Positions 1 to 51,502 of a stretch of 64,000 nt of DNA are shown in pieces. A model generated the notes under the pieces. The model worked only from the letters and a program-made list of their open reading frames with translations. It searched no databases and was not told the DNA's origin. This DNA is from the human T2T-CHM13v2.0 reference genome, Homo sapiens: NCBI RefSeq assembly GCF_009914755.1, contig NC_060930.1. One strand, 5' to 3'. A program made the translations under genes and the position numbers. Positions within the stretch are counted from its first letter, which is position 1. Each line of letters opens with the position of its first letter.

Positions 1-3000
1 CATAGTGCCCCAGTGTGCACTCACCTAGCCTCATCATAGTGTCCCAGTGTGCGCTCACCTAGCCTCATCATACTGTCCCAGTGTGCGCTCACCTGGCCTC
101 ATCATAGTGCCCCAGTGTGCACTCACCTGGCCTCATCATAGTGTCCCAGTGTGCGCTCACCTGGCCTCATCATAGTGTCCCAGTGTGCAGTCACCTAGCC
201 TGATCATAGTGTCCCAGTGTGCGCTAACCTAGTCTCATCATAGTTTCCCAGTGTGGGCTCATCTAGCCTCATCATAGTGCCCCACTGTCCGCTCACGTAG
301 CCTCATAATAGTACCGCAGTGTGCACTCACTTAGCCTCATCACAGTGCGCCTGTGTGTGCTCACCTGGCCGCATCATAGTGGCCCAGTGTGCGCTCAGCT
401 GGCTTCATCATAGTGCCCCAGTGTGCGCTGACGTACCCTCTTCATAGTTTCCCAGTGTGCGCTCACCTAGCCTCATCATAGTGCCCCAGTGTACGCTCAC
501 CAAGCCTCCCCATAGTGCCCAAGTGTGCGCTCACCTAGCCTCATCACAGTGTCCCAGTGGGCACTCACCCGGCCTCATCATAGTGTCCCAGGGTGCACTC
601 ACCTAGCCTCATCATAGTGTCCAAGTGTGCGCTCACCCACCCTCATCATAGTGGCCCAGTGTGCGCTCAACTAGACTCATCTTAGTGCCCCAGTGTGCGC
701 TGACCTACCCTCTTCATAGTGTCCCAGTGTGCGCTCACCTAGCCTCTTCATAGTGTCCCAGTGTGCGCTCACCTAGCCTCATCATAGTGCCCGAGTGTGC
801 ACTCACCAGGCCTCACCATAGTGCCCCAGTGTGCCCTCACCTACCCTCATCATAGTGTCCCAGTGGGCGCTCACCCGGCCTCATCATAGTGTCCCAGTGT
901 GCACTCACCTAGCCTCATCATAGTGTCCAAGTGTGCGCTCACCCAGCCTCATCATAGTGTCCCAGTGCGTGCTCACCCGGCCTCATCATAGTATCCCAGT
1001 GTGCACTCTCCCGGCCTCATCATAGTGTCCAAGTGTGCACTCACCTAGCCTCATCAGAGTGTCCCAGTGTGCGCTCACCCGGCCTCATCATAGTGCCCCA
1101 GTGTGCACTCACCAGGCCTCATCATAGTGCCCCAGTGTGCACTCAAGCAGCCTCATCAGAGTGTCGCAGTGTGCGCTCACCTTACCTCATCATAGTGTCC
1201 CAGTGTGCGCTCACCCGGCCTCATCATAGTGTCCCAGTGTGCGCTCACCTAGCCTCATCAAAGTGTCCCAGTGTGCGCTCACCTGCCCTCATCATAGTGC
1301 CCCAGTGTGCGCTCACCTAGCCTCATCATAGTGTCCCAGTGTGCGCTCACCTAGCCTCAGCATAGTGTCCTTTTATCCGCTCACCTAGCCTCATCAAAGT
1401 GCCCCAGTGTGCGCTCACCTAGCCTCATCACACTGCCCCAGTGTGCGCTCACCTAACCTCATCATAGTGTCCCATTGTGCGTTCACCTAGCCGCATCAGA
1501 GTGTCCCAGTGTGTGCTCACCCGGCCTCATCATAGTGGCCCAGTGTACACTCACCTGGCCTCATTATACTGTCCCAGTGTGCACTCACCTGGCCTCATCA
1601 TAGTGTCCCAGTGTGCACTCACCTAGCCTCATCATAGTGTCCCAGTGTGCACTCAGCTAGCCTGATCATAGTGTCCCAGTGTGCACTCACCTAGCCTCAT
1701 CATAGTGCCCCAGGGTGCGCTCATCTGGCCTCATGATAGTGTCGCAGTGTGCACTCACCTAACGTCATCATAGTGTCCCAGTGTGCAATCACCTAGCCTC
1801 ATCATAGTGCGCCAGTGTCCGCTCACCTAGCCTCATCAAAGTGTCCCATTGTGTGCTCACCTAGCCTCATCACAGTGCCCCAGTCGGCGCTCACCTAGCC
1901 TCATCATAGTGCCCCATTGTTCGCTCACCTAGCCTCATCATAGTGTCCCAGTGGGCACTCACCTGGCCTCATAATAGTGTCCCAGTGTGCGCTCACCGTG
2001 CTTCATCATAGTGAACCAGTGTGCGCTCACCTAGCCTCATTATAGTGTCCCAGTGTGCGCTCACCCGGCCTCATCATAGTGTCCCAGTGTGCACTCACCT
2101 AGACTCATCATAATGCCCCAGTATCCGCTCACCTAGCCTCATCATAGTGTCCCAGTGAGCGCTCACCCGGCCTCATCATAGTGTCCCAGTGAGCGCTCAC
2201 CCGGCCTCATCATAGTGCCCCACTGTGCGCTCACCCGGCCTCATCATAGTGTCCCACTGTGCGCTCACCTGGCCATATCATAGTGTCCCAGTGTGCGCTC
2301 ACCTAGCCTCATCATAGTGCCCCAGTGTGCGCTCACCTGGCCTCATCATAGTGCCCCAGTATGCATTCACCTAGCCTCATCATAGTGCCCCAGTGTGCAC
2401 TCACCTAGCCTCATCATAGTGTCCCAGTGTGCGCTCACCCGACCTCATCATAGTGCCCCAGTGTGCACTCAGGTAGCCTCCTCATAGTGTCCCAGTGTGC
2501 ACTCACCCGGCCTCATCATAGTGTCCCAGTGTGCGCTCACCCAGCCTCGTCATAGTGCCCCAGTGTTCGCTCACCTGACCTCATCATAGTGTCCCAGAGT
2601 GCACTCACTTGGCCTCATCATAGTGTCCCAGTGGGCGCTCACCTGGCATCATCATAGTGTCCCAGTGTGCGCTCACCCGGCCTCATCATAGTGCCCCAGT
2701 GTGCGCTCACCCGGCCTCATCATAGTGCCTCAGTGTGCGCTCATCTAGCCTCATCATAGTCTCCCAGTGTCCGCTCACCTAGCCTCATCATAGTATCCCA
2801 GTATGCACTCACCCGGCCTCACCATAGTGTCGCAGTGTGCATTCACCCGGCCTCAGCATAGTGTCCCAGTGTGCGCTAACCTAGCGTCATCATAGTGTCC
2901 CAGTGTCCGCTCACATAGCCTCATCATAGTGCCCCAGTGTGCACTCACCTAGCCTCATCATAGTGCACCAGTGTGCACTCACCTGGCCTCATCATAGTGT

Positions 3001-6000
3001 CTCAGTGTACACTCACCTGGCCTCATCATAGTGTCTCAGTGTGCTCTCACCTGGCCTCATCATAGTGTCCCAATGTCCGCTCACCTAGCCTGATCATAGT
3101 GCCCCAGTATCCGTTCACTTAGCCTCATCATAGTGCCCCAGTATCCGTTCACCTAGCCTCATCATAGTGTCCCAGTGTGCACTCACCTGGCCTCATCATA
3201 GTGTCCCAGTGTGCGCTAAACTAGTCTCATCATAGTTTCCCAGTGTGGGCTCACCTAGCCTCATCATAGTGCCCCACTGTCCACTCACCTAGCCTCATCA
3301 TAGTGCCCCACTGTCCGCTCACCTAGCCTCATCATAGTGCCCCAGTTTGAACTCACTTAGGCTCATCATAGTGTCCCAGTGTGCGCTCACCTGGCCGCAT
3401 CATAGTGCCCCAGTGTGCACTCACCCAGCCTCATCATAGTGTCCCAGTGTGCACTCACCAGGCCTAATCATAATGCCCCAGTGTGCACTCACCTAGCCTC
3501 ATCATAGTGTCCCAGTGTGCGCTCACCTTGCGTCATCATAGTGTCCCAATGTGCGCTCACCCGGCCTCATCATAGTGTCCCAGTGTGCGCTCACCTAGCC
3601 TCATCATAGTGTCCCAGTGTGCGCTCCCCTGGCCTCATCATAGTGCCCGTGTGCGCTCACCTAGCCTCATCATAGTGTCCGAGTGTGCGCTCACCTAGCC
3701 TCATCATAGTGTCCCATTGTGCGTTCACCTAGCCTCATCATAGTGTCCCAGTGTGTGCTCACCCAGCCTCATCATAGTGTCCCAGTGCGTGCACACCTAG
3801 CCTCATCATAGTATCCCAGTGTGCGCTCACCCGGCCTCATCATAGTATCCCAGTGTGCACTCTCCCGGCCTGATCATAGTGTCCAAGTGTGCACTCAACT
3901 AGCCTCATGATAGTGTCCAAGTGTGCACTCACCTAGCCTCATCAGAGTGTCCCAGTGTGCGCTCACCCGGCCTCATCATAGTGCCCCAGTGTGCACTCAC
4001 CAGGCCTAATCATAACGCCCCAGTGTGCACTCACCTAGCCTCATCATAGTGTCCCAGTGTGCGCTCATCTTACCTCATCATAGTGCCCCAGTGTGCGCTC
4101 ACCCGGCCTCATCATAGTGCCCCACTATGCCCTCACCCGGCCTCATGATAGTGTCCCAGTGTGCACTCACCTGGCCTGATCATAGTGTCCCAGTGTGCAT
4201 TGACCTAGCCTCATCATAGTGTCCCAGTGTGCGCTCACCTAGCCTCATCATAGTGTCCTTTTATCCGCTCACCTAGCCTCATCAAAGTGCCCCAGTGTGC
4301 GCTCAACTAGCCTCATCACACTGCCCCAGTATGCGCTCACCTAACCTCATCATAGTGTCCCATTGTGCGTTCACCTAGCCTCATCAGAGTGTCCCAGAGT
4401 GTGCTCACCCAGCCTCATCATAGTGGCCCAGTGTACACTCACCTGGCCTCATTATACTGTCCCAGTGTGCACTCACCCGGCCTCATCATAGTGTCCCAGT
4501 GTGCACTCACCTAGCCTCATCATAGTGTCCCAGTGTGCACTCAGCTAGCCTGATCATAGTGTCCCAGTGTGCACTCACCTAGCCTCATCATAATGCCCCA
4601 GGGTGCGCTCATCTGGCCTCATGATAGTGTCGCAGTGTGCACTCACCTAACGTCATCATAGTGTCCCAGTGTGCAATCACCTAGCCTCATCATAGTGCCC
4701 CAGTGTCCGCTCACCTAGCCTCATCAAAGTGTCCCAGTGTGTGCTCACCTAGACTCATCACAGTGCCCCAGTCGGCGCTCACCTAGCCTCATCATAGTGC
4801 CCCATTGTGCGCACACCTAGCCTCATCATAGTGTCCCAGTGTGCATTCACATGGCCTAATAGTGTCCCAGTGTGCGCTCACCGTGCTTCATCATAGTGAA
4901 CCAGTGTGTGCTCTCGTAGCCTCATTATAGTGTCCCAGTGTGCGCTCACCCGACCTCATCATAGTGTCCCAGTGTGCACTCACCTAGACTCATCATAATG
5001 CCCCAGTATCCGCTCACCTAGCCTCATCATAGTGCCCCAGTATCCGTTCACCTAGCCTAATCATAGTGTCCCAGTGTGCACTCACCTGGCCTCATCATAG
5101 TGTCCCAGTGTGCGCTAAACTAGTCTCATCAGTTTCCCAGTGTGGGCTCACCTAGCCTCATCATAGTGCCCCACTGTCCACTCACCTAGCCTCATCATAG
5201 TGCCCCACTGTCCGCTCACCTAGCCTCATCATAGTGCCCCAGTGTGAACTCACTTAGCCTCCTCATAGTGCGCCAGTGTGCGCTCACCTGGCCGCATCAT
5301 AGTGCCCCAGTGTGCACTCACCCGGCCTCATCATAGTGGCCCAGTGTGCACTCACCAGGCCTAATCATAATGGCCCAGTGTGCACTCACCAGGCCTAATC
5401 ATAATGCCCCAGTGTGCGCTCACCCGGCCTCATCATAGTGTCCCAGTGTGCGCTCACCTAGCCTCATCATAGTGTCCGAGTGTGCGCTCACCTAGCCTCA
5501 TCATAGTGTCCTTTTATCCGCTCACCTAGCCTCATCAAAGTGCCCCAATGTGCGCTCATCTAGCCTCATCACACTGCCCCAGTGTGCGCTCACCTAACCT
5601 CATCATAGTGTCCCATTGTGCGTTCACCTAGCCTCATCATAGTGTCCCAGTGTGTGCTCCCCCTGCCTCGTCATAGTGCCCCAGTGTATACTCACCTGGC
5701 CTCATTATACTGTCCCAGTGTGCACTCTCCCGGCCTCATCATAGTGTCCCGGTGTGCGCTCACCTAGCCTCATCATAGTGTCCCACTGTGCGCTCACCTG
5801 GCCTCATCATAGTGTCCCAGTGTGCACTCACCTGGCCTCATCATAGTGCCCCAGTGAGCACTCACCTAGCCTCAGCATAGTGCCCCATTGTGCACTCACC
5901 TACCCTCAACGTAGTGCCCCAGTGTACACTCAACCGGCCTCATCATAGTGCCCCAGTGAGCACTCACCTAGCCTCAGCATAGTGTCCCACTGTGCGCTCA

Positions 6001-9000: not shown

Positions 9001-12000
9001 GTGTCGCAGTGTGCACTCACCTAGACTCATCATAGTGTCCCAGTGTGCAATCACCTAGCCTCATCATAGTGCCACAGTGTGCGCTCACCTGGCCTCAACA
9101 TACTGTCCCAGTGTGCGGTCACCTAGCCTCATCATAGTGTCCCAGTGTGCGCTCACCTGGACTCATCATAGTACCGCAGTGTGCACTCACCTGGCCTCAT
9201 CATAGTGTCCCAGTGTCCGCTCACCGAGCATCATCATAGGGCCCCAGTGTGCGCTCACCCGGCCTCATCATAGTGCCCCACTATGCCCTCACCGGGCCTC
9301 ATGATAGTGTCCCAGTGTGCACTCACCTGGCCTGATCATAGTGTCGCAGTGTGCATTCACCTAGCCTCATCATAGTGCCCCAGTGTGCACTCACCTAGGC
9401 TCAACATAGTGTCCCAGTGTGCGCTCACCTAGCCTCATCATAGTGTCACAGTGTGCCCTCAGCCGGCCTCATCATAGTGTCCCAGTGTGCGCTCACCCGG
9501 CCTCATAACAGTGCCCCAGTGTGCGCTCACCTGGCCTCGTCATAGTGTCCCACTGTGCATTCACCTGGCCTCATCATAGTGTCCCAGTGTGCATTCATCT
9601 GGCCTCATCATAGTTTCCCAGTGTGCGCTCACCCGGCCTCATCATAGTGTCCCACTGTGCACTCACCTGGCCTCATCATAGTGTCCCAGTGTGCGCTCAC
9701 CTAGCCTCATCATAGTGTCCCAGTGTGCGTTCACCTAGCCTCATCATAGTGTCCCAGTGTGCGCTCACCTGGCCTCATCATAGTGCCCCACTGTGCACTC
9801 ACCTAGCCTCATCATAGTGCCCCAGTGTGCACTCACCTAGCCTCATCATAGTGTCCCAGTGTGCGCTCACCCGGCCTCATCATAGTGCCCCAGTGTGCAC
9901 TCACCTGGCCTCATCATAGTGTCCCAGGGTGCACTCACCCGGCCTCATCATAGTGTCCCAGTGTGCGCTCACCCAGCCTCATCATAGTGCCCCAGTGTTC
10001 GCTCACCTGGCCTCATCATAGTGTCCCAGATTGCACTCAACTGGCCTCATCATAGTGACCCAGTGGGCGCTCACCCGGCATCACCATAGTGTCCCAGTGT
10101 GCGCTTACCCGGCCTCATCACAGTGCCCCAGTGTGCGCTCACCCGGCCTCATCATAGTGCCTCAGTGTGCTCTCGCCTAGCCTCATCATAGTGTCCCAGT
10201 GTCCCCTCACCTAGCCTCATCATAGTGTCCCAGTGTGCACTCACCCGCCCTCACCATAGTGTCGCAGTGTGCACTCACCCGGCCTCATCATAGTGTCCCA
10301 GTGTGCGCTAACGTAGCCTCATCATAGTGTCCCAGTGTCCACTCACATAGCCTCATCCTAGTGACCCAGTGTGCACTCACCTAGCCTCATCATAGTGCCC
10401 CAGTGTGCACTCACCTAGCCTCATCATAGTGCATCAGTGTGCACTCACCTTGCCTCATCATAGTGTCCCAGTGTGCACTCACCTGGCCTCATCATAGTGT
10501 CTCAGTGTGCTCTCACCTGGCCTGATCATAGTGTCACAGTGTCCACTCACCTAGCCTGATCATAGTGCCCCAGTATCCGCTCACTTAGCCTCATCACAGT
10601 GCCCCAGTATCCGTTCACCTAGCCTCATCATAGTGTCCCAGTGTGCACTCACCTGGCCTCATCATAGTGCCCCAGTGTGCGCTCACCTTGCCTCATCATA
10701 GTGTCCCAGTGTGCACTCACCTAGCCTCATCATAGTGCCCCAGTGTGCGTTCACATAGCCTCATCATAGTACCCCACTGTCCGCTCACCGAGCCTCATCA
10801 TAGTGCCCCAGTGTGCACTCACCTAGCCTCATCTTAGTGTCCCAGAGTGCGCTCACCTAGCCTCATCATACTGTCCCAGTGTGCGCTCACCTAGCCTCAT
10901 CATAGTGCCCCAGTGTGAACTCAACTAGCCTCATCATAGTGCCCCAGTGTGGACTCACCTGGCCTCATCAGTGTCCCAGTGTGCGCTCACCTGGCGTCAT
11001 CATAGTGTCCCAGTGTGCACTCTCCTAGCCTCATCATAGTGTCCCAGTGTGCGCTCACCTGGCGTCATCATAGTGTCCCAGTGTGCACTCTCCTAGCCTC
11101 ATCATAGTGTCCCAGTGTGCGCTAACCTAGTCTCATCATAGTTTCCCAGTGTGGGCTCATCTAGCCTCATCATAGTGCCCCACTGTCCGCTCACGTAGCC
11201 TCATAGTAGTACCCCAGTGTGCACTCACTTAGCCTCATCATAGTGCGCCAGTGTGCGCTCACCTGGCCTCATCATAGTGCCCCAGTGTGCGCTGACGTAC
11301 CCTCTTCACAGTTTCCCAGTGTTCGCTCACCTAGCCTCATCATAGTGCCCCAGTGTGCGCTCACCAAGCCACCCCATAGTGCCCAAGTGTGCGCTCACCT
11401 AGCCTCATCACAGTGTCCCAGTGTGCACTCACCCAGCCTCATCATAGTGTCCCAGGGTGCACTCACCTAGCCTCATCATAGTGTCCAAGTGTGCGCTCAC
11501 CCACCCTCATCATAGTGGCCCAGTGTGCACTCACCTAGCCTCATCATAGTGTCCCAGTGTCCACTCACCTAGCCTCATCATAGTGTCCCAGTGTGCGCTC
11601 ACCGGCCTCATCATAGTGTTCCAGTGTGCGCTCACCCGGCCTCATCATAGTGTCCCAGGGTGCACTCAAGTAGCCTCAACATAGTTCCCAGTGTGCGCTT
11701 ACCCGGCCTCATCATAGTGCCCCAGTGTGCACTCACCAGGCCTCATCATAGTGCCCCAGTGTGCACTCACCTAGCCTCATCATAGTGTCCCAGTGTGCGC
11801 TCAACTGGACTCATCATAGTGCCCCAGTGTGCGCTGACCTACCCTCTTCATAGTGTCCCAGTGTGCGCTCACCTAGCCTCTTCATAGTGTCCCAGTGTGC
11901 GCTCACCTAGCCTCATCATAGTGCCCGAGTGTGCACTCACCAAGCCTCCTCATAGGGCCCGAGTGTGCACTCACCTAGCCTCATCACAGTGTCCCAGTGT

Positions 12001-15000
12001 GGGCTCACCTAGCCTCATCATAGTACCCCAGTGTGCACTCACCGGGCCTCATCATAGTGCCCCAGTGTGCGCTCACCTAGCCTCATCATAGTGTCCCAGT
12101 GTGCGCTCACCTAACCCCATCATAGTGCTCCAGTGTGACCTCACCTAGCCACATCATAGTGTTGCAGTGTGCAGTCAGCTAGCCCCATCATAGTGTCACA
12201 ATGTGCGCTCACCCGGCCTCATCAGTGTCCCACTGTGCACTCACCTAGCCTAATCATAGTGCCCCAGTGTCCGCTCACCTAGCCTCATCGTAGTGCCGCA
12301 GTGTGCACTCACCTGGCCTCATCATAGTGTCCCAGTGTGCGCTTACCTAGCCTCATCATACTGCCCCCCTATGCACACACCGAGCCTCATTATAGTGTCC
12401 CAGTGTGTGCTCACCTAGCCTCATCATAGTGTCCCAGTGTGCGCTCACCTAGCCTCATCATAGTGTCCCAGTGTGGACGCATACGGCCTCATCATAGTGT
12501 CCCAGTGTGCACTCAATCGGCCTCATCATAGTGCCCCAGTGAGCACTCACCTAGCCTCAGCATAGTGCCCCAGTGTGCACTCACCTACCCTCAACATAGT
12601 GGCCCAGTGTGCACTCAACCGGCCTCATCATAGTGCCCTACTGTCCGCTCACCTAGCCTCATCATAGTGTCCCAGTGTGCACTAATCCGGCCTCATCATA
12701 GTGTCCCAGTGTGCGCTCACCTAGCCTCATCTTAGTGTCCCAGTGTGCACTCATCTAGCCTCATGATACTGCCCCAGTGTGCACTCACCTACCCAAATAT
12801 AGTGTCCCAGTGTGCACTCACCCGGAATCATCATAGTGTCCCAGTGTGCGCTCCCCTAGCCTCATCATAGTATCCCAGTGTGCACTCACCTAGCCTCATC
12901 ATAGTGTCCCAGTGTGCGCTCACCTATCTTCATCGTAGTGTCCCAGTGTGCGCTCACCTAGCCTCCTCATAGTGTCCCAGTGTGCGCTCAAATGGCCTCA
13001 TCATAGTGTCCCAGTGTGTACTCACCTGGCCTCATCATAGTGTCCCAGTGTGCACTCACCTGGCCTCATCATTGTGTCCGAGTGTGCACTAACCTGGCCT
13101 CATCATAGCGTCCCAGTGTGCACCCACCCGGCTTCATCATAGTGTCCCAGTGTGCGCTGAGCTAGCCTCATCATAGTGCCCCCAGTGTACACTCATCTAA
13201 CCTTATCATAGTTTCCCAGTGTGCACTCACCTAGCCTCAACATAGTTCCCCAGTGTGCGTTGACCTGGCCTCATTATAGTGCCCCAGTGTGCAATCACCT
13301 AGCCTCATCATAATGTCCTAGTGTGCACTCACCTGCCCTCATCATAGTAACGCAGTATCCACTCACCTAGCCTCATGATAGTGTCCCAGTGTGCACTCAC
13401 CTGGCCTCATCATAGTGCCCCAGTGTGCGCTCACCTAGCCTCATCATAGTGTCCCAGTGTGCACTCACCTAGCCTTATCATAGTGACCCAGTGTGCGCTC
13501 ACCCGGCCTCATCATAGTGTCCCAGTGTGCACTCACCTAGCCTTATCATAGTGACCCAGTGTGCGCTCACCCGGCCTCATCATAGTGTCCCAGTGTGCAC
13601 TCACCGAGCCTCATCATAGCGCCCCAGTGTGCACACAGCTAGCCTCATCATAGTGTCCCAGTGTTCGCTAACCTAGCCTCATCATAGTGACCCAGTGTCC
13701 CCTAACCTAGCCTCATCATAGTGTGCCAGTGTGCGCTCACCTAGTCTCATCATAGTGCCCCAGTCTGCGCTCACCTAGCCTCATCATAGTGCCCCAGTGT
13801 ACGCTCACCCGGCCTCATCATAGTGCCCCAGTGTGCACTCACCGAGCCTCACCATAGTGTCGCAGTCTGCGCTCACCCGGCCTCATCATAGTGCCCCAGT
13901 GTGCCCTCACCTAACCCCATCATAGTGTCCCAGTGTGCGCTCACCTGGCCTCATCTTACTGTCCCAGTGTGCGCTCACCTAGCTTCATCATAATGCCCCA
14001 GTGTGAACTGAACTAGCCTCATCATAATGCCCCAGTGTGCAGTCACCTGGCCTCATCATAGTGTCCCACTGTGCGCTTACCTAGCCTCATCATACTGCCC
14101 TAGTGTGCGCTCACCTAGCCTCATCATACTGCCCCAGTGTGCGCTCACCTAGCCTCATCATAGTGCCCCCGTGTGCACACACCGAGCCTCATTATAGTGT
14201 CCCAGTGTGTGCTCACCTACCCTCATCATAGTGTCCCAGTGTGCGCTCACCTAGCCTCATCATAGTGTCCCAGTGTGCACGCATACGGCCTCATCATAGT
14301 GTCCCAGTGTGCACTCACCTGGCCTCATCATACTGCCCCAGTGAGCACTCACCTAGCCTCAGCATAGTGCCCCAGTGTGCACTCACCTACCCTCATCATA
14401 GTGCCCCACTGTGCACTCAACCGGCCTCATCATAGTGTCCCAGTGTGCGCTCACCTAGCCTCAACATAGTGCCCTAGTGTCCCCTCACCTAGCCTCATCA
14501 TAGTGTCCCAGTGTGCACTAATCCGGCCTCATCATAGTGTCCCAGTGTGCGCTCACCTAGCCTCATCTTAGTGTTCCAGTGTGCACTCACCTAGCCTCAT
14601 CATAGTGCCCCAGTGTGCACTCACCTAGCCTAATGATAGTATCCCAGTGTGCACTCACCCGGAATCATCATAGTGTCCCAGTGTGCGCTCCCCTAGCCTC
14701 ATCATAGTGTCCCAGTGTGCACTCACCTAGCCTCATCAGTGTCGCAGTGTGCGCTCACCTGTCCTCATCGCAGTGTCCCAGTGTGCGCTCACCTAGCCTC
14801 ATCATAGTGTCCCAGTGTGCGCTCAACTGGCCTCATCATAGTGTCCCAGTGTGCGCTCACCTGGCCTCATCATAGTGTCCCAGTGTGCACTCACCTGGCC
14901 TCATCATAGTGTCCCAGGGTGCACTCACCCGGCCTCATCACAGTGTCCCAGTGTGTGCTGAGCTAGCCTCATCATAGTGCCCCAGTGTACACTCATCTAG

Positions 15001-18000
15001 CCTTATCATAGTTTCCCAGTGTGCACTCACCTAGCCTCAACATAGTGCCCCAGTGTGCGTTGACCTGGCCTCATTATAGTGCCCCAGTGTGCATTTACCT
15101 AGCCTCATCATAGTGCCCCAGTGTGCGCTCACCTAGCCTCATCAGTGCCACAGTGTGCACTCACCTAGCGTCATCATAGTGCCCCAGTGTGCACTCACCG
15201 AGCCTCATCATAGTGCCCCACTGTGCTCTCACCTAGTCTCATCATAGTGTCCCAGTGTGCACTCACCGAGCCTCATCATAGCGCCCCAGTGTGCACTCAG
15301 CTAGCCTCATCATAGTGTCCCAGTGTGCGCTAACCTAGCCTCATAATAGTGCCCCAGTGTCCCCTCACCTGGCCTCATCATAGTGTCTCAGTGTGCACTC
15401 ACCTGGCCTCATCATAGTGTCCCACTGTGCGCTCACCCAGCCTCATCATAGTGCCTCAGTGTGCCCTCACCTGGCCTCATCATACTATTGCAGAGTGCAC
15501 TCACCTGGCCTCATCATAGTGTCCCAGTGTGCGCTCATCCGGCATCATCATAGTGTCCCAGTGTGCGCTCACCTGGCCTCATCATAGTGTCCCAGTGTGC
15601 GCTCACCTGGCCTCATCATAGTGTCCCACTGTGCGCTCACCCGGCCTCATCATAGTGCCTCAGTGTGCCCTCACCTGGCCTCATCATAGTGTCGCAGAGT
15701 GCACTCACCTGGCCTCATCATAGTGTCCCAGTGTGCGCTCATCCGGCATCATCATAGTGTCCCAGTGTGCGCTCACCTGGCCTCATCATAGTGCCCCAGT
15801 GTGCGCTCACCTGGCCTCATCATAGTGCCTCAGTGTGCGCTCACCTGGCCTCATCATAGTATCCCAGTGTCCGCTCACCTAGCCTCATCATAGTGTCCCA
15901 GTGTGCACTTACCTGGCCTCATCTTAGTGTCCCAGTGTGCACTCACCCGGTCTCATCATAGTGTCCCAGTGTGAGGTAACGTAGCCTCATCATAGTGTCC
16001 CAGTGTCCGCTCACCTAGCCTCATCATAGTGTCGCACTGTGCACTCACCTACCCTCATCATAGTGCCCCAGTGTGCGCTCACCTAGCCTGATCGTAGTGC
16101 CCCAGTGTGCGCTCACCTAGCCTGATCGTACTGCCCCAGTGTGCGGTCATCTACCCTCATCATAATGTCCCAGTGTGCACTCACCCGGCCTCATCATACT
16201 GCCCCAGTGTCCGCTCACCTAGCCTCATCATAGTGTCCCAGTGTGTGCTGACCTTGCCTCATCACAGTGCCCCAGTCTGCGCTCACCTGGCCTCATCATA
16301 GTGCCCCAGTATCCGCTAACCTAGCCTCATCATAGTGCCCCAGTGGGCGCTCACCTGGCCGCATCATGGTGCCCCAGTGTGCAGTCACCTAGCCTCATCA
16401 TAGTGTCCCAGTGTGCGCTCACCTAACCCCATCATAGTGCCCCAGTGTGCTCACACCTAGCCACATCATAGTGTCCCAGTGTGCACTCACCTAGCCCCAT
16501 CATAGTGTCCCAGTGTGCACTCACCTAGCCCCATCATAGTGTCCGAATGTGCGCTCACCCAGCCTGATCATACTGTCCGACTGTGCGCTCACCTAGCCTC
16601 ATCATAGTGCCCCCGTGTGCACACACCGAGCCTCATTATAGTGTCCCAGTGTGTGTTCACCTAGCCTCATCATAGTGTCCCAGTGTGCGCTCACCTAGCC
16701 TCATCATAGTGTTCCAGTGTGCGCTCACCTAGCCTCATCATAGTGTTCCAGTGTGCACGCATACGGCCTCATCATAGTGTCCCAGTGTGCAATCACCTGG
16801 CCTCATCATAGTGCCCCAGTGAGCACTCACCTAGCCTCAGCATAGTGCCCCAGTGTGCACTCAACCGGCCTCATCATAGTGTCCCAGTGTGCGCTCACCT
16901 AGCCTCAACATAGTGCCCTAGTGTCCCCTCACCTAGCCTCATCATAGTGTCCCAGTGTGCGCTCACCTGGCCTCATCATAGTGTCCCAGTGTGCACTCAC
17001 CCGGCCTCATCATAGTGTCCCAGTGTGCACTGAGCTAGCGTCATCATAGTGCCCCAGTGTACACTCATCTAGCCTTATCATAGTTTCCCAGTGTGCACTC
17101 ACCTAGCCTCAACATAGTGCCCCAGTGTGCGTTGATCTGACCTCATTATAGTGCCCCAGTGTGCAATCACCTAGCCTCATCATGTCCCAGTGTGCACTCA
17201 CCTGCCCTCATCATAGTACCGCAGTATCCACTCACCTAGCCTCATCATAGTGTCACAGTGTGCACTCACCGAGCCTCATAGTGCCCCAGCGTGCACTCAC
17301 CTAGCCTCATCATAGTGTCCCAGTGTGCACTCACCGAGCCTCATCATACCGCCCCAGTGTGCACTCAGCTAGCCTCATCATAGTGCCCCAGTGTACGCTC
17401 ACCCGGCCTCATCATAGTGCCGCAGTGTGCACTCACCTAGCCTCACCATAGTGTCGCAGTGTGCACTCACCCGGCCTCATCATAGTGCCCCAGGGTGCAC
17501 TCACCTAGCCTCATCATAGTGTCCCAGTGTGCGCTCACCTGGCCTCATCTTACTGTCCCAGTGTGCGCTCACCTGGCCTCATCTTACTGTCACAGTGTGC
17601 GCTCACCTAGCTTCATCATAATGCCCCAGTGTGAACTCAACTAGCCTCATCATAGTGCCACAGTGTGCACTCACCTGGCCTCATCATAGTGTCCCAGTGT
17701 GCACTCACCTAGCCTCATCATAGTGTCCCACTGTGCGCTCACCCGGCATCATCATAGTGCCCCAGTGTGCGCTCACCCGGCCTCATCATAGTGCCTCAGT
17801 GTGCGCTCACCTAGCCTCATCATAGTGTCCCAGTGTCCGCTCACCTAGCCTCATCATAGTGTCCCAGTGTGCACTCACCTGGCCTCATCATAGGGTCCCA
17901 GTATGCACTCACCTGGCCTCATCAAAGTGTCCCAGTGTGTGCTCACCCGGCCTCATCATAGTGTCCCAGTGTGCGCTCACCTGGCCTCATCATAGTGTCC

Positions 18001-21000
18001 CACTGTGCGCTCACCCGGCCTCATCATAGTGCCTCAGTGTGCCCTCACCTGGCCTCATCATAGTGTCGCAGAGTGTGCTCACCTGGCCTCATCATAGTGT
18101 CCCAGTGTGCGCTCATCCGGCATCATCATAGTGTCCCAGTGTGCGCTCACCTGGCCTCATCATAGTGCCCCAGTGTGCGCTCACCTGGCCTCATCATAGT
18201 GCCTCAGTGTACGCTCACCTAGCCTCATCATAGTGTCCCAGTGTGCACTTACCTGGCCTCATCTTAGTGTCCCAGTGTGCACTCACCCGGTCTCATCATA
18301 GTGTCCCAGTGTGCGCTAACGTAGCCCCATCATAGTGTCCCAGTGTCCGCTCACCTAGCCTCATCATAGTGCCCCAGTGTCCGCTCACCTAGCCTCATCA
18401 TAGTGCCGCACTGTGCACTCACCTACCCTCATCATAGTGCGCCAGTGTGCGCTCACCTAGCCTGATTGTAGTGCCCCAGTGTGCGCTCATCTACCCTCAT
18501 CATAATGTCCCAGTGTGCACTCACCCGGCCTCATCATACTGCCCCAGTGTCCGCTCACCTAGCCTCATCATAGTGTCCCAGTGTGCGCTGACCTTGCGTC
18601 ATCACAGTGCCCGAGTGTGCCCTCACCTGGCCTCAACGTAGTGCCCCAGTCTGCGCTCACCTGGCCTCATCATAGTGCCCCAGTGTGCACTCACCTAGAC
18701 TCATCATATTACCCCAGTGTGCATTCACCTGGCCTCATCATAGTGTCCCAGTGTGCGCTCACCTAACCCCATCATAGTGCCCCAGTGTGCTCTCACCTAG
18801 CCAAATCATACTGTCCCAGTGTGCACTCACCTAGCCCCATCATAGTGTCCCAATGTGCGCTCACACAGCCTGATCATAGTGTCCGACTGTGCGCTCACCT
18901 AGCCTCATCATAGTGTCCCAGTGTGCACTCACCTAGCCTCATCATAGTGCCCCCGTGTGCACACACCGAGCCTCATTATAGTGTCCCAGTGTGTGCTCAC
19001 CTACCCTCATCATAGTGTCCCAGTGTGCGCTCACCTAGCCTCAACATAGTGCCCTAGTGTCCCCTCACCTAGCCTAATCATAGTGTCCCAGTGTGCACTA
19101 ATCCGGCCTCATCATAGTGTCCCAGTGTGCGCTCACCTAGCCTCATCTTAGTGTCCCAGTGTGCACTCACCTAGCCTCATCATAGTGCCCCAGTGTGCAC
19201 TCACCTAGCCTAATGATAGTGTCCCAGTGTGCACTCACCCGGAATCATCATAGTGTCCAAGTGTGCGCTCCCCTAGCCTCATCATAGTGTCCCAGTGTGC
19301 ACTCACCTAGCCTCATCATAGTGTCCCAGTGTGCGCTCACCTATCCTCATCGCAGTGTCCCAGTGTGCGCTCACCTAGCCTCATCATAGTGTCCCAGCGT
19401 GCGCTCAACTGGCCTCATCATAGTGTCCCAGTGTACACTCACCCGGCCTCATCATAGTGTCCCCGTGTGCGCTGAGCTAGCCTCATCATAGTGCCCCAGT
19501 GTACACTCATCTAGCCTTATCATAGTTTCCCAGTGTGCACTCACCTAGCCTCAACATAGTGCCCCAGTGTGCGTTGAACTGGCCTCATTATAGTGCCCCA
19601 GTGTGCAATCACCTAGCCTCATCATAATGTCCCAGTGTGCACTCACCTGCCCTCATCATAGTACTGCAGTATCCACTCACCTAGCCTCATCATAGTGTCC
19701 CAGATTGCACTCAACTGGCCTCATCATAGTGCCCCAGTGTGCGCTCACCTAGCCACATCATAGTGTCCCAGTGTGCGCTCACCTGGCCTCATCATAGTGC
19801 CGCAGTGTGCACTCACCTAGCCTCATCATAATGTCCCAGTGTGCGCTCACCTAGCCTCATCTTAGTGTCCCAGTGTGCACTCACCTAGCCTCATCATAGT
19901 GTCCCAGTGTGCACTCACCTAGCCTCATCATAGTGTCCCAGTGTGCGCTCACCCGGCCTCATCATAGTATCCCAGTGTGCACTCACCTAGCCTCATCAGT
20001 GTCCCAGTGTGCGCTCACCTAGCCTCATCATACTGTCCCAGTGTGCGCTCACCCGGCCTCATCATAGTGCCCCAGTGTGCACTCACCAGGCCTCATCATA
20101 ATGCCCCAGTGTGCACTCACCAAGCCTCATCATAGCGTTCCAGTGTGCGCTCACGTAGCCTCATCATAGTGCCCCAGTGTACACTCACCCGGCCTCATCA
20201 TAGTTTCCCAGTGTGCGCTCACCCGGCCTCATGATAGTGCCCCAGTGTGCGCTCACCTAGCCTCATCATAGTGTCCCAGTGTGCGCTCACCCGGCATCAT
20301 CATAGTGTCCCAGTGTGCACTCACCAAGCCTCATCATAGTGCCCCAGTGTGCACTCACCTGGCCTCATCATAGGATCCCAGTGTCTGCTCACCTGGCCTC
20401 ATCATAGTGTCCCAGTGTGCGCTCACCTAGCCTCATCATAGTGCCCCAGTGTGCACTCACCTAGCCTCAACATAGTGCCCCAGTGTGCGTTGACCTGGCC
20501 TCATTATAGTGCCCCAGTGTGCACTCACCAAGCCTCATCATAGTGCCCCAGTGTGCACTCACCTGGCCTCATCATAGGATCCCAGTGTCTGCTCACCTGG
20601 CCTCATCATAGTGTCCCAGTGTGCGCTCACCCGGCCTCATCATAGTGCCCCAGAATGCGCTCCCCTGGCCTCATCATAGTGCCCCAGTGAGCGCGCACCC
20701 GGCCTCATCATAGTGCCGCAGTGTGCGCTCACGTGACTTCAACATAGTGTCCCAGTGTGCACTCACCCGGCCTCATCATAGTACCCCAGTGTGCACTCAC
20801 CTGGCCTCATCATACTGTCCCAATGTGCACTCACCTGGCCTCATCATAGTGTCCCAGGGTGCAATCACCAGGCCTCGTCATAGTGTCCCAGTGTCCGCTC
20901 ACCTGGCCTCATCATAGTGCGCCAGTGTGTGCTCAACTAGCCTCATCATAGTGCCCCATTGTGCGCTCATCTACCCTCATCATAGTGTCCCAGTGTGCAC

Positions 21001-22350
21001 TCACCTGGCCTCATCATACTGTCCCAGTGTGCGCTCACCTAGCCTCATCATAGTGTCCCAGTGTGCACTCACCCGGTCTCATGATAGTGTCCCAGTGTGC
21101 GCTGACCTAGCCTCATCATAGTGTCCCAGTGTGCACTCACCTAGCCTCATCATGGTGTCCCAGTGTGAGCTCACCCGGCCTCATCATAGTGTCCCAGTGT
21201 GCGCTGACCTAGCCTCATCATAGTGTCCCAGTGTGCACTCACCTAGCCTCATCATAGTGTCCCAGTGTGAGCTCACCCGGACTCATCATAGTGTCCCAAT
21301 GTGCACTCACACGGCCTCATCATAGTGTCCCAGTATGCACTCACCCAGCCTCATCATACTGCCCCAGTGTCCGCTCACCGGGCCTTATTACAGTGTCCAG
21401 TGTGCGCTCACCTGGCCTCATCATAGTGCCCCAGTCTGCGCTCACCTGGCCTCATCATAGTGCCCCAGTGTGCACTCACCTAGACTCATCATAGTACCCC
21501 AGTGTGCAGTCATCTGGCGTCATCATAGTGCCCCAGTGTTCGCTCACCTAGCCTCATCATAGTGTCCCAGTGTGCGCTCACCTAACCCCATCATAGTGCC
21601 CCAGTGTGCTCTCACCTAGCCACATCACAGTGTCCCAGTGTGCATTCACCTAGCCCCATCATAGTGTCCCAATGTGCGCTCACCTGGCCTCATCATAGTG
21701 TCCCCGTGTGTGCTCACCCGGCCTCATCACAGTGACCCACTGTGCGCTCACCTGGCCTAATCATAGTGTCCCAGTGTGCGCTCACGTGGCCTCATCAGAG
21801 CGCCCCAGTGTGCGCTCACCTAGCCTCATCACAGTGCCCCAGTGTGCACTCCCCTAGCCTCATCACAGTGCCCCAGTGTGCGCTCACCTGGCCTCATCAC
21901 AGTGTCCCAGTGTGCGCTCACCTGGCCTCATCACAGTGTCCCAGTGTCCGCTCACCTGGCCTCATCATAGTGCCCCAGTGTGCGCTCACCTAGCCTCATA
22001 GTGTCTCAGTGTGCACTCACCCGGCCTCGTCATAGTGCCGCAGTGTGCGCTCACCCGGCCTCATCATAGAGCCCCAGTGTGCGCTCACCCGGCCTCATCA
22101 TTGTGTCCCAGTGTGCGCTCACCCGGCCTCATCATAGTGTCCCTGTGTGCGCTCACCCGGCCTCATCATAGTGTCCCAGTGTGCGCTCACCTGGCCTCAT
22201 CATAGTGCCCCAGTGTGCACTCACCTGGCCTCATCATAGTGTCCCAGTGTGCGCTCACCTGGCCTCATCATAGTGTCGCAGTGTGCACTCACCTGGCCTC
22301 ATCATAGTGTCCCAGTGTGCACTCACCTGGCCTCATCATAGTGTCCCAGC
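1..22350. repeat. 34-bp unit macrosatellite/VNTR in TMEM242 intron 3 (consensus CATAGTGYCCCAGTGTGCRCTCACCYRGCCTCAT), about 655 copies, truncated by the window start
   Basis: The unit recurs in exact register at 1, 35, 1021 (30x34), 2041 (60x34) and 3061 (90x34). It ends abruptly at about 22349 (…catagtgtcccag|catgcattccc). Copy number is length/34. Confidence 0.98.
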
Positions 22351-22600
22351 ATGCATTCCCATGATCATGTACACAGCTGATTTAGGAGACTACAAACCCA
22401 AAGTAAATGTTCATCTTTTTTTCCAGAATTAAGTTATTGTGATAAAATTGGTGCTATCTTAATTATAATCAAATAATAAAATACCATAGTTGAAAGTAAT
22501 CGATGAACACAAACTGAACAGTCAAGCCGTGCTTGTTGGCCAGGGTGGGCCGGGGAGCAGGGTAGATACTGAACTGGCACTGATTTCTCCCCATTGTCAA

Positions 22601-22770
22601 TGCTGGGCAAACTTACCTGCCTTGGTCTAACAAGACATCTTCTGCTACCTCTCCTTCTTTAGATCCTCTGGTTAAATGATATAACAGTGTGTAAAATACA
22701 CATGTGTTTATATTTAATGTTATTATATGCATTCTATGTGAAATGAAATTCCAGAATAATTATGAATAAA
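22601..22770 (+). repeat. copy 1 of a diverged ~170-bp local duplication
   Basis: Aligns by eye with 23768-23934 (tgctgggcaaac…ctctccttcttt…ttaaatgata…ttctatgtgaaatgaaattcca…taattatgaataaa). Confidence 0.85.
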
Positions 22771-22910
22771 CAAACAGTAAAACCAAAATACTTTAAAGAA
22801 ACCGAAGTTTCACTTTAAGCATTTTAAACATGTTCCCTTTTAGGCCAGCAGATGTAGCTGCGAATTAAAATAGGAACCGCAAGCACTTTCATCAAGCTGC
22901 TCTAGGTTAA

Positions 22911-22924
22911 CCATTAGATGGCAC
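22911..22924 (+). promoter_or_regulatory. candidate CTCF site
   Basis: CCATTAGATGGCAC resembles the CTCF core CCASYAGRKGGCRS. Motif match only. Confidence 0.4.
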
Positions 22925-23510
22925 CCTTTTGTATTGGAACTGGGTTTCTATCAGAGATTCAATTCAATTCGAGCTAGCTACTTACAATTATTTAACGCTG
23001 GAGTTGATTTTATCTAGAATGATCATCTCAGTTATTTATTGAGTGCATAGACTTGGACCATTTCTGTTTAACATTTTCTGACTGAGACTGTTTTCTTAGT
23101 CATACAAAGATGAGACAGTACACAGTGACAGAAGTTCTTACTGGACTCAGGGTAACCTCATAATTATCAAAACTCTCTAAACGTTGAGCTGAATATACCA
23201 CATTGCTGTCTGCAAGCCTCAGAGCAGGGTCATACCATAAGAATTTGCTTAGAAAGTCAACAGGTAAGGTTTACCCCTTTACAGGGTAGCGCTGTCTTAG
23301 CACAGTGCTTGGCTCAGGAGAGACCCACAAATGACTTTAGAATGAACAAACCAGCAAATTAGTAAACACTACCGCCTTTAAAAGATATGACCTTGAAAAG
23401 GTATCAGTGAGTTCATTTTTCTGTGGGCCTTCTCAAACATGGAGATCAAACTGATATGCCTAATGATCTATATGCAGAGAGAGTGCATATGCAGTCTCTC
23501 TTTTTACTTA

Positions 23511-23626
23511 GACATAAAGATGTCAGGAACTCTCTTTCTTTGTGGTCCCAGCACCTAACCCAATCCCAGGTACCCAGCAGAGGCTGAGTAGATATTTCCT
23601 ACTTATCACTGGATGACATAAAGATG
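23511..23626 (+). other. templated insertion (94 bp matching 55811-55906) between 12-bp direct repeats GACATAAAGATG
   Basis: Direct repeats at 23511-23522 and 23615-23626. The insert differs from the donor by 3 substitutions and a 2-bp indel. Confidence 0.88.
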
Positions 23627-23767
23627 CAATATAAAAGGATTCCACATATTCTTATATTCAGTAGTGCCAACCAGAAAATATTTTTTCTCCCCAAAATATC
23701 TTATTTAGGCAGCAATCCTTGTATCAATGCCAAAAAACAAAGAAGTTCACATTCTACCCATCTTCAG

Positions 23768-23934
23768 TGCTGGGCAAACGTATCTGCTTTGTTTGGTAAC
23801 AAGATAGCTCCCAATACCTCTCCTTCTTTGGAACCTCTGATTAAATGATATACCACTGTGTGAAATAGAAATGTATGTTTGTATTTAATGTATGTGTTCT
23901 ATGTGAAATGAAATTCCATAATAATTATGAATAA
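23768..23934 (+). repeat. copy 2 of the ~170-bp local duplication
   Basis: Aligns with 22601-22770. Confidence 0.85.
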
Positions 23935-24224
23935 AAAATTGGATTATTCTAGCACAGTTGGATTATTCTAGCCCATAAACACTGAATTATCAAGTGTATA
24001 ATTTAGATAACCTAATTTTGTTGGTTTATGAAAACTGGGATTGACTCTTCTAAGTGAGACTATTTGTATTTTCAAATACCTTAAAATTTTACTAAGTTTG
24101 TGACCCACATTACTAAACACTGGAAACATCACATATCAGTTCCACACAGTTCATGTAAAGTGCTAGCAGACTGTCATTTTTATAGAAACTAGAAGCTTAA
24201 TAACTTTATTACTAAGTACTACTT

Positions 24225-24420
24225 AATAATCTGAAGATTCAGACCTGGGTTTAAATCTTGACACTGCCAATCACATGTTATGTCATCTTGGGCAAGTGAT
24301 TTAACCTCTTTGAGCCCCAATTTCCTCATTTATAAAATGGGGGATATTAATATCTGCTAGATAGTTATTATGAAGATTAAATAATCTGCTATGTCTAAAA
24401 TGTCTGTAGAATGCCTAAAA
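24225..24420 (+). mobile_element. MIR SINE
   Basis: MIR core cttgggcaagtgatttaacctctttgagccccaatttcctcatttataaaatggggat. Confidence 0.8.

Positions 24421-24580: not shown

Positions 24581-24895
<315 letters not shown>

Positions 24896-51471: not shown

Positions 51472-51502
<31 letters not shown>

What the first reader, a model, noticed from the sequence alone, without database searches (positions are those of the whole stretch)
1..22350. Intronic macrosatellite that is a tandem array of several hundred consensus 5' splice donors (U1 sites) on the TMEM242 pre-mRNA
Seen: on the transcribed (minus) strand the unit reads ATGATGAGGC(T/C)(A/G)G|GTGAG(T/C)GCACACTGGG(A/G)CACT. Almost every 34 nt therefore carries TAG|GTGAGY, CAG|GTGAGY or CGG|GTGAGY, and CAG|GTGAGT matches the MAG|GTRAGT donor consensus. 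The unit has no polypyrimidine tract and no AATAAA. Known: U1 snRNP pairs with such sites, suppresses premature cleavage/polyadenylation (telescripting) and promotes chromatin retention of RNA. Inference: each TMEM242 transcript carries at least 22 kb of U1-binding RNA. This could act as a U1/SR-protein sponge or seed a nuclear RNA focus, and array length or variant mix could tune intron 3 splicing and TMEM242 dosage (ATP synthase assembly).
Basis: partly seen in the sequence, partly recalled or inferred. Interest (0 to 1): 0.85.

Follow-up and report, generated by a model that had tools for sequence, protein, structure and literature searches.

The report
Giant splice-donor-bearing repeat in TMEM242 intron
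A catalogued 40-kb repeat inside an intron of the mitochondrial gene TMEM242 puts roughly 700 to 1,000 strong splice-donor look-alikes on each pre-mRNA, but the sequence shows no sign that these sites are kept by selection or do more than ride along.

Summary
A 34-bp tandem array fills window 1-22349 and continues past the window start. In this assembly it covers chr6:158516133-158556349: 40,217 bp, about 1,183 units, 65% of TMEM242 intron 3.

On the TMEM242 sense strand, 1029 of 1184 units have GT at the donor position. 733 of 1184 score at or above the median of 256 real chr6 donors. There are no usable acceptors (0 of 3282 AG sites) and no AATAAA or ATTAAA, so the array is donor-only.

It is not new as a repeat. 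It is a published VNTR with 31-40 kb alleles, only 4 kb in GRCh38, and has been used as a CRISPR imaging target. The kind is also known: the F7 IVS7 and ABCA7 intron 18 VNTRs carry tandem pseudo-donors.

Nothing indicates selection for the donors. The donor core columns are no better conserved than the other columns. Genome-wide, tandem triplets of the donor 8-mer are rarer than those of its reversed control (309 vs 649).

Most likely this is a neutrally expanded minisatellite whose unit happened to contain a donor. U1 probably binds it, and it stays splicing-silent. A cell-wide U1 sponge is quantitatively implausible. A length-dependent effect on TMEM242 itself is untested.

The parts
1..22349 (-). 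Proximal 22.3 kb (658 units) of the 34-bp VNTR. The whole array is chr6:158516133-158556349, so it continues 17,868 bp beyond the window start. Sense-strand unit: ATGATGAGGC(T/C)(A/G)G|GTGAG(C/T)GCACACTGGG(A/G)CACT.
   Evidence: TRF; segmentation; donor scoring
22350..26768 (-). Unique 4,419-nt 5' part of TMEM242 intron 3, between the authentic exon 3 donor and the array. It has ordinary donor-like density (0.91 per kb at or above the median real donor) and holds 5 AATAAA and 3 ATTAAA.
   Evidence: distance
26769..26906 (-). TMEM242 exon 3. Its authentic donor AGT|GTAAGT scores at the 12th percentile of real donors, below most array pseudo-donors.
   Evidence: RefSeq annotation given with the finding
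11771..12076 (-). The 'intron' of Gnomon lncRNA model LOC124906577. It is exactly 306 nt, or 9 units, running from TAG|GTGAGC to CTAG|GTGAGT. Its acceptor has no polypyrimidine tract. It is probably an alignment artefact of a unit-number difference rather than real splicing.
21609..22600 (.). RefSeq functional-element feature 'H3K27ac-H3K4me1 hESC enhancer', straddling the proximal array edge. A second feature, 'OCT4-H3K27ac-H3K4me1 hESC enhancer', straddles the distal edge at chr6:158516042-158516581, outside the window.

Best explanation
This is a very large but ordinary-in-kind intronic minisatellite (VNTR). It arose by tandem amplification of a unique 34-bp stretch of TMEM242 intron 3 that happened to contain a strong 5' splice-site 9-mer in the sense orientation. 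Each pre-mRNA from this haplotype therefore carries about 730-1,000 donor-like sites in 40 kb.

Inferred mechanism: U1 snRNP binds many of these sites co-transcriptionally, as it does at other intronic pseudo-donors. The sites stay silent in splicing for two reasons. No acceptor lies upstream or inside the array to define an exon. The authentic donor lies 4.4 kb upstream and is engaged first. The array then leaves with the intron lariat.

The donor content is a passenger of repeat expansion, not a selected function. Any effect is confined to the TMEM242 transcript itself: extra transcription time, and possibly slower release or removal of intron 3. Such an effect is probably small.

Shown here: the array, its extent, donor strength, the lack of acceptors and poly(A) hexamers, and the lack of within-array constraint. 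Inferred: U1 occupancy, silence in splicing, and neutrality.
For: Structure: the array is 40,217 bp with about 1,183 units. Its flanks are unmasked unique sequence.

Donor-only composition:
- 733 of 1184 units score at or above the median real donor.
- Density is 18.7 per kb on the sense strand, 0.02 per kb antisense, 0.4-0.9 per kb in the flanks, and 1.2 per kb in 200 kb of chr6.
- 0 of 3282 AG sites reach the 5th percentile of real acceptors.
- There are 0 AATAAA and 0 ATTAAA on the sense strand.

No constraint on the donor:
- Mean major-allele frequency is 0.9416 for core columns 13-18 and 0.9404 for 24 other columns (Mann-Whitney p=1.0).
- The +1 G is the least conserved G in the unit, at 0.891.
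- Three of the four highly polymorphic columns lie inside the donor 9-mer.

Chance is adequate:
- About 1.1% of random 34-mers per strand hold an equally good site.
- Genome-wide, triplets of AGGTGAGT spaced 10-40 nt give 309 matches, against 649 for the reversed control. At least 10 other loci appear in the first 100 rows, three of them in the sense orientation of a coding gene: GET4, JAKMIP1, DHRS3.

Precedent for silence: F7 IVS7 pseudo-donors are functional but unused, even at 91% complementarity to U1 (PMC1557585, abstract, Discussion).

Annotation: RefSeq lists one TMEM242 mRNA here, and none uses an array donor.

The repeat is a known length-polymorphic VNTR with 31-40 kb alleles (PMC12855859, passage). 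It lies in quiescent, weakly transcribed chromatin in HCT116 (PMC11394217, passages).
Against: - The authentic exon 3 donor is weak (AGT|GTAAGT, 12th percentile). It is followed by hundreds of stronger sites, so competition or delayed commitment is conceivable.
- The scale is 40-75 times that of the three comparator arrays looked at.
- A Gnomon lncRNA model built on the array suggests that repeat RNA is detectable in RNA-seq.
- The column test has little power if selection acts on the array as a whole under concerted evolution.
- The genome-wide control uses one exact 8-mer, and only the first 100 of 309 rows were visible.
- No primate orthologues, expression data or binding data could be examined.
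Confidence: 0.6

Rival explanations
1. Cis-acting regulator. Dense U1 loading on the array tunes TMEM242 output in a length-dependent way. Possible routes: holding the nascent RNA on chromatin, slowing or decoying intron 3 splicing against the weak authentic donor, or raising local U1 to protect the PAS-rich 17-kb tail of the intron from premature cleavage.
For: - The exon 3 donor is at the 12th percentile, while 969 of 1184 array sites reach the 25th percentile or better.
- The intron tail downstream of the array holds 12 AATAAA and 9 ATTAAA.
- A single CAGGUGAGU site suffices for U1-dependent chromatin retention of a reporter (10.1101/310433, passages), and 101 units are identical to it.
- Deep-intronic U1 interactions affect splicing of SMN exons (PMC11289892, abstract).
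- ABCA7 VNTR length affects splicing (PMC5954066, passages).
- Alleles differ by several kb (PMC12855859).
Against: - There is no constraint on the donor core within the array.
- F7 tandem pseudo-donors do not compete with the upstream site.
- No annotated isoform uses the array.
- No paper links the repeat to TMEM242 expression in main text.
- Predicted folding leaves the donor 9-mer mostly paired: mean unpaired probability 0.29, against 0.40 for the rest of the unit.
Confidence: 0.22
2. Trans-acting sponge or nuclear-body seed. The repeat RNA accumulates and sequesters U1 snRNP and SR proteins, affecting splicing elsewhere.
For: - Each transcript carries about 1,000 U1-type sites.
- A purine-rich ATGATGAGG run lies next to each donor.
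- A Gnomon lncRNA model covers 31.8 kb, mostly array.
- Repeat RNAs that sequester splicing factors are a known class (recalled: PNCTR, satellite III).
Against: - Stoichiometry: even ten pre-mRNAs per cell would offer about 10^4 sites, against roughly 10^6 U1 particles (recalled figure).
- The locus is only weakly transcribed and in quiescent chromatin in HCT116 (PMC11394217).
- The lncRNA model starts 7 nt inside intron 3, so it looks like pre-mRNA or intron reads and not a separate stable RNA.
- Predicted structure is no more stable than shuffles (z = 0.12).
Confidence: 0.04
3. DNA-level element. The array acts in chromatin, for example as part of a domain boundary or as a platform flanked by regulatory elements, and the RNA motif is irrelevant.
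For: - The array was chosen as a marker of a TAD border in HCT116 (PMC11394217, passages).
- RefSeq hESC enhancer features straddle both array edges.
- The array holds 960 CpGs.
Against: - The paper says the locus is at a border, not that the repeat makes it.
- Chromatin there is quiescent.
- Features exactly at repeat edges are what mappability limits on the 4-kb GRCh38 version would produce.
- No PRDM9-type 13-mer lies in the array, and CpG observed/expected is only 0.33.
Confidence: 0.1

Closest known systems
F7 intron 7 (IVS7) 37-bp VNTR of tandem 5' pseudo-splice sites (PMC1557585; abstract and Discussion read)
   Same: An intronic minisatellite of similar unit length (37 vs 34 bp). Every unit carries a functional-looking donor in the sense orientation, and the downstream copies are silent in normal splicing.
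   Different: F7 has 5-9 copies and its first unit contains the authentic exon 7 donor. The TMEM242 array has about 1,183 copies, starts 4,419 nt downstream of the authentic donor, and does not include it.
ABCA7 intron 18 25-bp VNTR (PMC5954066; passages read)
   Same: An intronic VNTR whose units begin with a GT donor. Its length is polymorphic and reported to affect splicing of the host gene.
   Different: The ABCA7 array abuts exon 18 and supplies its donor, the reference copy is 592 bp, and use of a unit donor has been observed. None of this is shown for TMEM242.
U1-dependent chromatin-retention element NXF1-enChr (preprint 10.1101/310433; abstract and passages read)
   Same: It has the same 9-mer, CAGGUGAGU, with no acceptor and no splicing. 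101 array units are identical to that site.
   Different: It is a single site presented in a structured 162-nt element in a retained-intron isoform, with U1 binding and retention shown by experiment. Here there are about 1,000 copies in an intron that is normally removed, and nothing has been measured.
Other donor-bearing minisatellites in the same genome (GET4, JAKMIP1, DHRS3 introns and at least 7 more loci)
   Same: Short G-rich units that contain AGGTGAGT, in the sense orientation of a host gene.
   Different: They span 0.5-1.1 kb (726 bp, 543 bp, about 1.1 kb), against 40.2 kb.
Large intronic VNTRs such as the CACNA1C intron 3 30-mer array
   Same: A unit of about 30 bp expanded to tens of kb inside an intron, and under-represented in older references.
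   Different: That array is discussed as a DNA-level expression modifier. I know of no donor motif in it.

Membership tests
Minisatellite / VNTR | Head-to-tail tandem copies of a 10-100 bp unit | tested here: met
   Period 34, 658.4 copies in the window, 0% indels. 1184 units in the whole array.
Minisatellite / VNTR | Copy number varies between haplotypes | not testable with these tools
   Only one assembly was available. Published evidence: four haplotypes of 31-40 kb against 4 kb in GRCh38 (PMC12855859, passage).
Macrosatellite | Unit of several hundred bp to kb (definition recalled) | tested here: not met
   The unit is 34 bp with no higher-order period. Unit identity is flat at about 0.84 for lags of 1 to 800 units.
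Tandem pseudo-5' splice-site VNTR (F7 IVS7 / ABCA7 intron 18 type) | Each unit carries a donor-like site in the sense orientation of the host gene | tested here: met
   1029 of 1184 units have GT in place and 733 of 1184 score at or above the median real donor. On the antisense strand only 1 site reaches the median.
Tandem pseudo-5' splice-site VNTR (F7 IVS7 / ABCA7 intron 18 type) | The first unit spans the exon-intron junction, so the authentic donor is part of the array | tested here: not met
   The array starts 4,419 nt downstream of the exon 3 donor, which is AGT|GTAAGT and not a repeat unit.
Tandem pseudo-5' splice-site VNTR (F7 IVS7 / ABCA7 intron 18 type) | Downstream pseudo-sites are unused in normal splicing | not testable with these tools
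   There are no RNA data. Annotation has one mRNA that does not use them. The only model that does is a Gnomon 9-unit 'intron' with a poor acceptor.
U1-dependent chromatin-retention element | A U1 recognition site able to pair with the U1 5' end, without a partner acceptor | tested here: met
   849 of 1184 units have 7 or more contiguous pairs and 101 are exact CAGGTGAGT. 0 of 3282 AG sites are acceptor-like.
U1-dependent chromatin-retention element | U1 snRNP binding and U1-dependent retention of the host RNA shown | not testable with these tools
Recursive splice site | A strong 3' splice site (polypyrimidine tract plus AG) juxtaposed to the donor | tested here: not met
   The AG|GT of the unit has median acceptor score -3.39 and maximum 2.33, below the 5th percentile (3.42) of 262 real acceptors.
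Splicing-factor sponge repeat RNA | Stable accumulation of the repeat RNA, with enough sites to deplete the factor | not testable with these tools
   Accumulation is unknown. The arithmetic with a recalled U1 abundance argues against depletion. Predicted structure is not unusual (z = 0.12).
Known structured RNA family (Rfam) | A match at the gathering threshold | tested here: not met
   The only hit in the window is Metazoa_SRP (Alu-like) at 30134-30281. Nothing matches in the array.

The most novel reading that the evidence does not exclude
The TMEM242 array is a natural cis-acting U1 landing pad and may be the largest donor-only RNA tract examined so far. By loading hundreds of U1 snRNPs on one nascent intron, it would hold the transcript on chromatin, set the pace of intron 3 removal against a weak authentic donor, and shield the PAS-rich 17-kb intron tail. 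The 31-40 kb length polymorphism would then be a graded modifier of the dosage of an ATP synthase assembly factor. It would also give a ready-made human system for testing telescripting and 5' splice-site-dependent retention.
Probability: 0.15. Interest if true: 0.7.

Novelty: new member of a known kind. Interest (0 to 1): 0.38.

Why it matters
If the donors matter, a common length polymorphism that was invisible in GRCh38 (4 kb there, 31-40 kb in complete assemblies) could modulate TMEM242. TMEM242 is needed to assemble the ATP synthase rotor ring (PMC8020751, listing only). The locus would then be a natural experiment on how much U1 an intron can carry.

If they do not matter, which I think more likely, the locus is still useful:
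- It shows that about 1,000 strong donors can sit in an intron of an expressed gene without wrecking its splicing. That fits exon definition and the F7 result.
- It warns that annotation pipelines can turn unmasked repeat RNA and unit-number differences into 'lncRNAs' with 'introns'.

Tried and rejected
Ideas tested and set aside:
- Higher-order repeat structure: none. Identity is flat with distance. Four internal block duplications exist, at lags of 389, 649, 128 and 260 units.
- Coding potential: rejected. 52 ORFs of at least 40 aa overlap the array; the longest is 95 aa. 51 of the 52 are antisense, and most start at GTG or TTG.
- Structured RNA: rejected. There is no Rfam hit in the array, and fold energy equals shuffles (z = 0.12).
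- Recursive splicing: rejected, because there are no acceptors.
- Cryptic exon ending at the first array donor: unlikely. The nearest acceptor-like site at or above the 25th percentile is 508 nt upstream, and no such exon is annotated.
- PRDM9 hotspot motif: none in the array; 2 in the window against 2.25 expected.
- m6A DRACH enrichment next to the donors: rejected. There are 0.66 per unit, against 0.62 per 34 nt in the flanking intron.
- Edge units as a guide to the ancestral form: edge donors are only slightly stronger (mean 9.9-10.3 vs 9.34 in the interior). Not decisive.
- CpG decay as the sole source of the polymorphic columns: only partly. Columns 11, 12 and 19 are CpG transitions, but the strand bias is inconsistent between sites and column 30 is not at a CpG.
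- Other copies of the repeat elsewhere in the genome: none reported (only the best candidates are scored).

Limits of what I could do:
- Literature: no paper prints the unit. TMEM242 with 'tandem repeat', 'VNTR' or 'copy number' gave only the two papers used. One search was badly framed and added nothing.
- MaxEntScan and SpliceAI were not on hand. I used a PWM from 256 real donors instead.
- No primate sequence, reads, CLIP or expression data were available.
- Supplementary tables of VNTR-eQTL studies, which might list this locus, were closed.
Full report
WHAT IS THERE

Tandem Repeats Finder reports a single array at window 1..22349 with period 34, 658.4 copies, 85% matches and no indels. G+C is 0.55-0.58 with a steady negative GC skew, and both drop sharply at the array end. 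Fetching the reference upstream showed that the array continues through all of L003 and into L001.

The array spans chr6:158516133-158556349, 40,217 bp or about 1,183 units. It lies in TMEM242 intron 3, which is 61,992 nt. The array makes up 64.9% of the intron and 56.9% of the gene. It starts 4,419 nt after the exon 3 donor and ends 17,356 nt before exon 4. Neither the array nor its immediate flanks are soft-masked in the RefSeq sequence. The flanks read as unique sequence.

THE UNIT

I segmented the sense (minus) strand into 1184 units, with a mean of 3.3 mismatches to the consensus.

759 of the 1184 units are distinct sequences. Unit-to-unit identity is about 0.84 at every lag from 1 to 800 units, so there is no higher-order repeat and no local homogenisation. 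Four internal blocks of 24-63 units have been duplicated over long distances.

DONOR CONTENT

No MaxEntScan was available. I built a 9-position log-odds matrix from 256 annotated GT donors of RefSeq Select mRNAs in twenty exon-dense 10-kb pieces of chr6.

- 1029 of 1184 units have GT at +1+2.
- 998 reach the 5th percentile of real donors, 969 the 25th, and 733 the median.
- The commonest forms are TAG|GTGAGC (212), TAG|GTGAGT (179), CAG|GTGAGT (101), CGG|GTGAGC (100), CAG|GTGAGC (91) and CGG|GTGAGT (47).
- In the window alone the figures are 566, 551, 535 and 408 of 658. 398 of 658 carry one of the six named forms.
- Perfect CAGGTAAGT occurs twice.
- 849 of 1184 units allow at least 7 contiguous pairs with the U1 5' end, against 114 of 256 real donors.

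Density of sites at or above the median real donor:

| Region | Sites per kb |
|---|---|
| Array, sense strand | 18.7 |
| Array, antisense strand | 0.02 |
| Two unique parts of the same intron | 0.91 and 0.40 |
| 200-kb chr6 background | 1.20 |

The array has no AATAAA or ATTAAA on the sense strand. None of its 3282 AG dinucleotides reaches the 5th percentile of 262 real acceptors. It is a donor-only tract.

IS THE DONOR MORE THAN A PASSENGER?

The units are copies of one another, so their number is not independent evidence. Three checks bear on this.

1. A random 34-mer has about a 1.1% chance per strand of holding a site as good as the consensus unit's. That is not rare, given how many minisatellites the genome holds.
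2. Within the array, the invariant donor core (columns 13-18) has mean major-allele frequency 0.9416, against 0.9404 for the 24 other non-polymorphic columns (Mann-Whitney p=1.0). The +1 G, at 0.891, is the least conserved G of the unit. Three of the four polymorphic columns sit inside the 9-mer and move its score between about 8 and 12.4.
3. Across the whole genome, three AGGTGAGT motifs spaced 10-40 nt apart occur 309 times, against 649 for the reversed control. This array accounts for 26 of the 309. The first 100 rows show at least 10 other loci. Three of them lie in the sense orientation of a coding gene. Those three arrays are 726 bp (GET4), 543 bp (JAKMIP1) and about 1.1 kb (DHRS3).

Donor-bearing minisatellites are therefore commonplace and not enriched. 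This one stands out for size only. The caveats are the weak power of the column test under concerted evolution, and a crude genome-wide control of which I saw only part.

WHAT THE RNA WOULD DO

The authentic exon 3 donor, AGT|GTAAGT, is weak (12th percentile). The exon 4 acceptor is average (64th percentile).

RefSeq lists one TMEM242 mRNA here, and none uses an array donor. The Gnomon lncRNA LOC124906577 starts 7 nt inside intron 3 and runs 31.8 kb, mostly through the array. Its single 'intron' is exactly nine units, from TAG|GTGAGC to CTAG|GTGAGT. Any whole-unit length difference can be aligned with GT-AG ends in this repeat, and the acceptor is very poor. I therefore read the model as pre-mRNA or intron reads plus an alignment artefact.

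Folding gives no unusual stability (z = 0.12). It predicts that the donor 9-mers are often paired with the same segment of other units: mean unpaired probability is 0.29, against 0.40 for the rest of the unit.

WHAT IS IN PRINT

- The repeat is a catalogued VNTR: 34-bp units in TMEM242 on 6q25.3, 4 kb in GRCh38, with alleles of 31-40 kb in long-read assemblies (PMC12855859, one passage).
- It served as the 'C6' target for CRISPR-Sirius imaging. That paper describes it as at a TAD border, in quiescent chromatin, and weakly transcribed in HCT116 (PMC11394217, passages).
- No paper prints the unit sequence. None found or 42 links it to splice donors or U1.
- The kind is known. The F7 IVS7 37-bp VNTR gives 5-9 identical donors, of which only the most upstream is used, even when downstream ones are strengthened to 91% complementarity (PMC1557585, abstract and Discussion).
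- The ABCA7 intron 18 25-bp VNTR starts at the exon 18 donor, and its length affects splicing (PMC5954066, passages).
- The site CAGGUGAGU, identical to 101 units here, is the U1 recognition motif that retains NXF1-enChr RNA on chromatin without splicing (10.1101/310433, abstract and passages).
- Deep-intronic U1 interactions influence SMN splicing (PMC11289892, abstract).
- Papers on 5' splice-site-motif nuclear retention (PMC9074902, PMC4380460, PMC11629677) were seen only in the search listing.

MOST LIKELY EXPLANATION

This is a neutrally expanded minisatellite whose unit happened to include a strong donor. U1 probably binds it. That follows from complementarity and from the general behaviour of intronic pseudo-donors (telescripting literature, recalled).

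The sites are silent because they cannot be exon-defined, the upstream authentic donor is engaged first, and the array leaves with the lariat. This rests on the exon-definition model (recalled) and the F7 result.

A cell-wide sponge is implausible. A few pre-mRNAs carrying about 1,000 sites each is small beside roughly 10^6 U1 particles per cell (recalled figure).

A cis effect on TMEM242 remains possible and is the interesting residue. It could involve chromatin retention, slower intron removal given the weak true donor, or protection of the intron tail that holds 12 AATAAA and 9 ATTAAA. Nothing available here could test it.

VERDICT

- Observation: confirmed, and the array is larger than stated.
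- Interpretation: partly supported.
- Novelty: the repeat itself is known; as a tandem pseudo-donor VNTR it is a new and extreme member of a known kind.
- Interest: moderate (0.38).

Noticed in passing
window 1-22349 and chr6:158516133-158534000: The 40-kb array carries no soft-masking of 100 bases or more in the RefSeq sequence. It also underlies a Gnomon lncRNA model (LOC124906577) with two 'exons' of 16.8 and 14.7 kb. This is a likely case of an annotation pipeline modelling intronic repeat RNA as a gene.
   Followed up: partly
window 1-22349 (GRCh38 chr6:157,310,356-157,314,362 per PMC12855859): GRCh38 holds only about 4 kb of this array, against 31-40 kb in complete assemblies. The CRISPR imaging study counted 22 and 39 guide targets on the 4-kb version. 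The true target number is probably about ten times higher, which could explain why this locus imaged best in that study (my inference).
   Followed up: no
window 21609-22600 and chr6:158516042-158516581: RefSeq hESC enhancer features sit exactly on both edges of the array. They could be real flanking elements or mappability-edge artefacts carried over from the short GRCh38 version.
   Followed up: no
whole array, units 374-437, 390-413, 590-615, 779-803 (chr6:158543645-158541506 and others): Unit identity shows no decay with distance (about 0.84 at all lags), and 585 units are unique. Yet four multi-unit blocks are duplicated at lags of 389, 649, 128 and 260 units, and the longest exact repeat is 323 bp. 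The mix of high scrambled diversity and a few recent long-range duplications is not explained.
   Followed up: partly
window 26766-26774 (exon 3 / intron 3 junction): The authentic donor of TMEM242 exon 3 (AGT|GTAAGT) and that of exon 2 (AAG|GTTGGT) are both weak, at the 12th and 17th percentiles of 256 real chr6 donors.
   Followed up: partly
window 30134-30281 (-): The window's only Rfam hit is Metazoa_SRP, just at gathering score (70 bits), in TMEM242 intron 2. It is most likely an Alu-type SRP-derived element.
   Followed up: no
window 1-22349, unit columns 1-7: Each unit begins with AUGAUGA, which matches the C-box heptamer of C/D snoRNAs (recalled consensus). The consensus has no D box, and Rfam reports no snoRNA match.
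   Followed up: partly
window 47702-47780 and 51450-51531: A small G-rich 16/32-bp minisatellite (about 4 copies) and a (TAG)n microsatellite of 27 copies lie in the intergenic part of the window.
   Followed up: no
L025 1233-1958 (chr7:996733-997458, GET4), L026 1132-1674 (chr4, JAKMIP1), L027 917-2024 (chr1, DHRS3): Other intronic minisatellites carry AGGTGAGT in the sense orientation of their host genes. At least seven further loci on chr1, chr2 and chr4 appear in the first 100 rows of the genome scan, and 209 more rows were not shown.
   Followed up: partly
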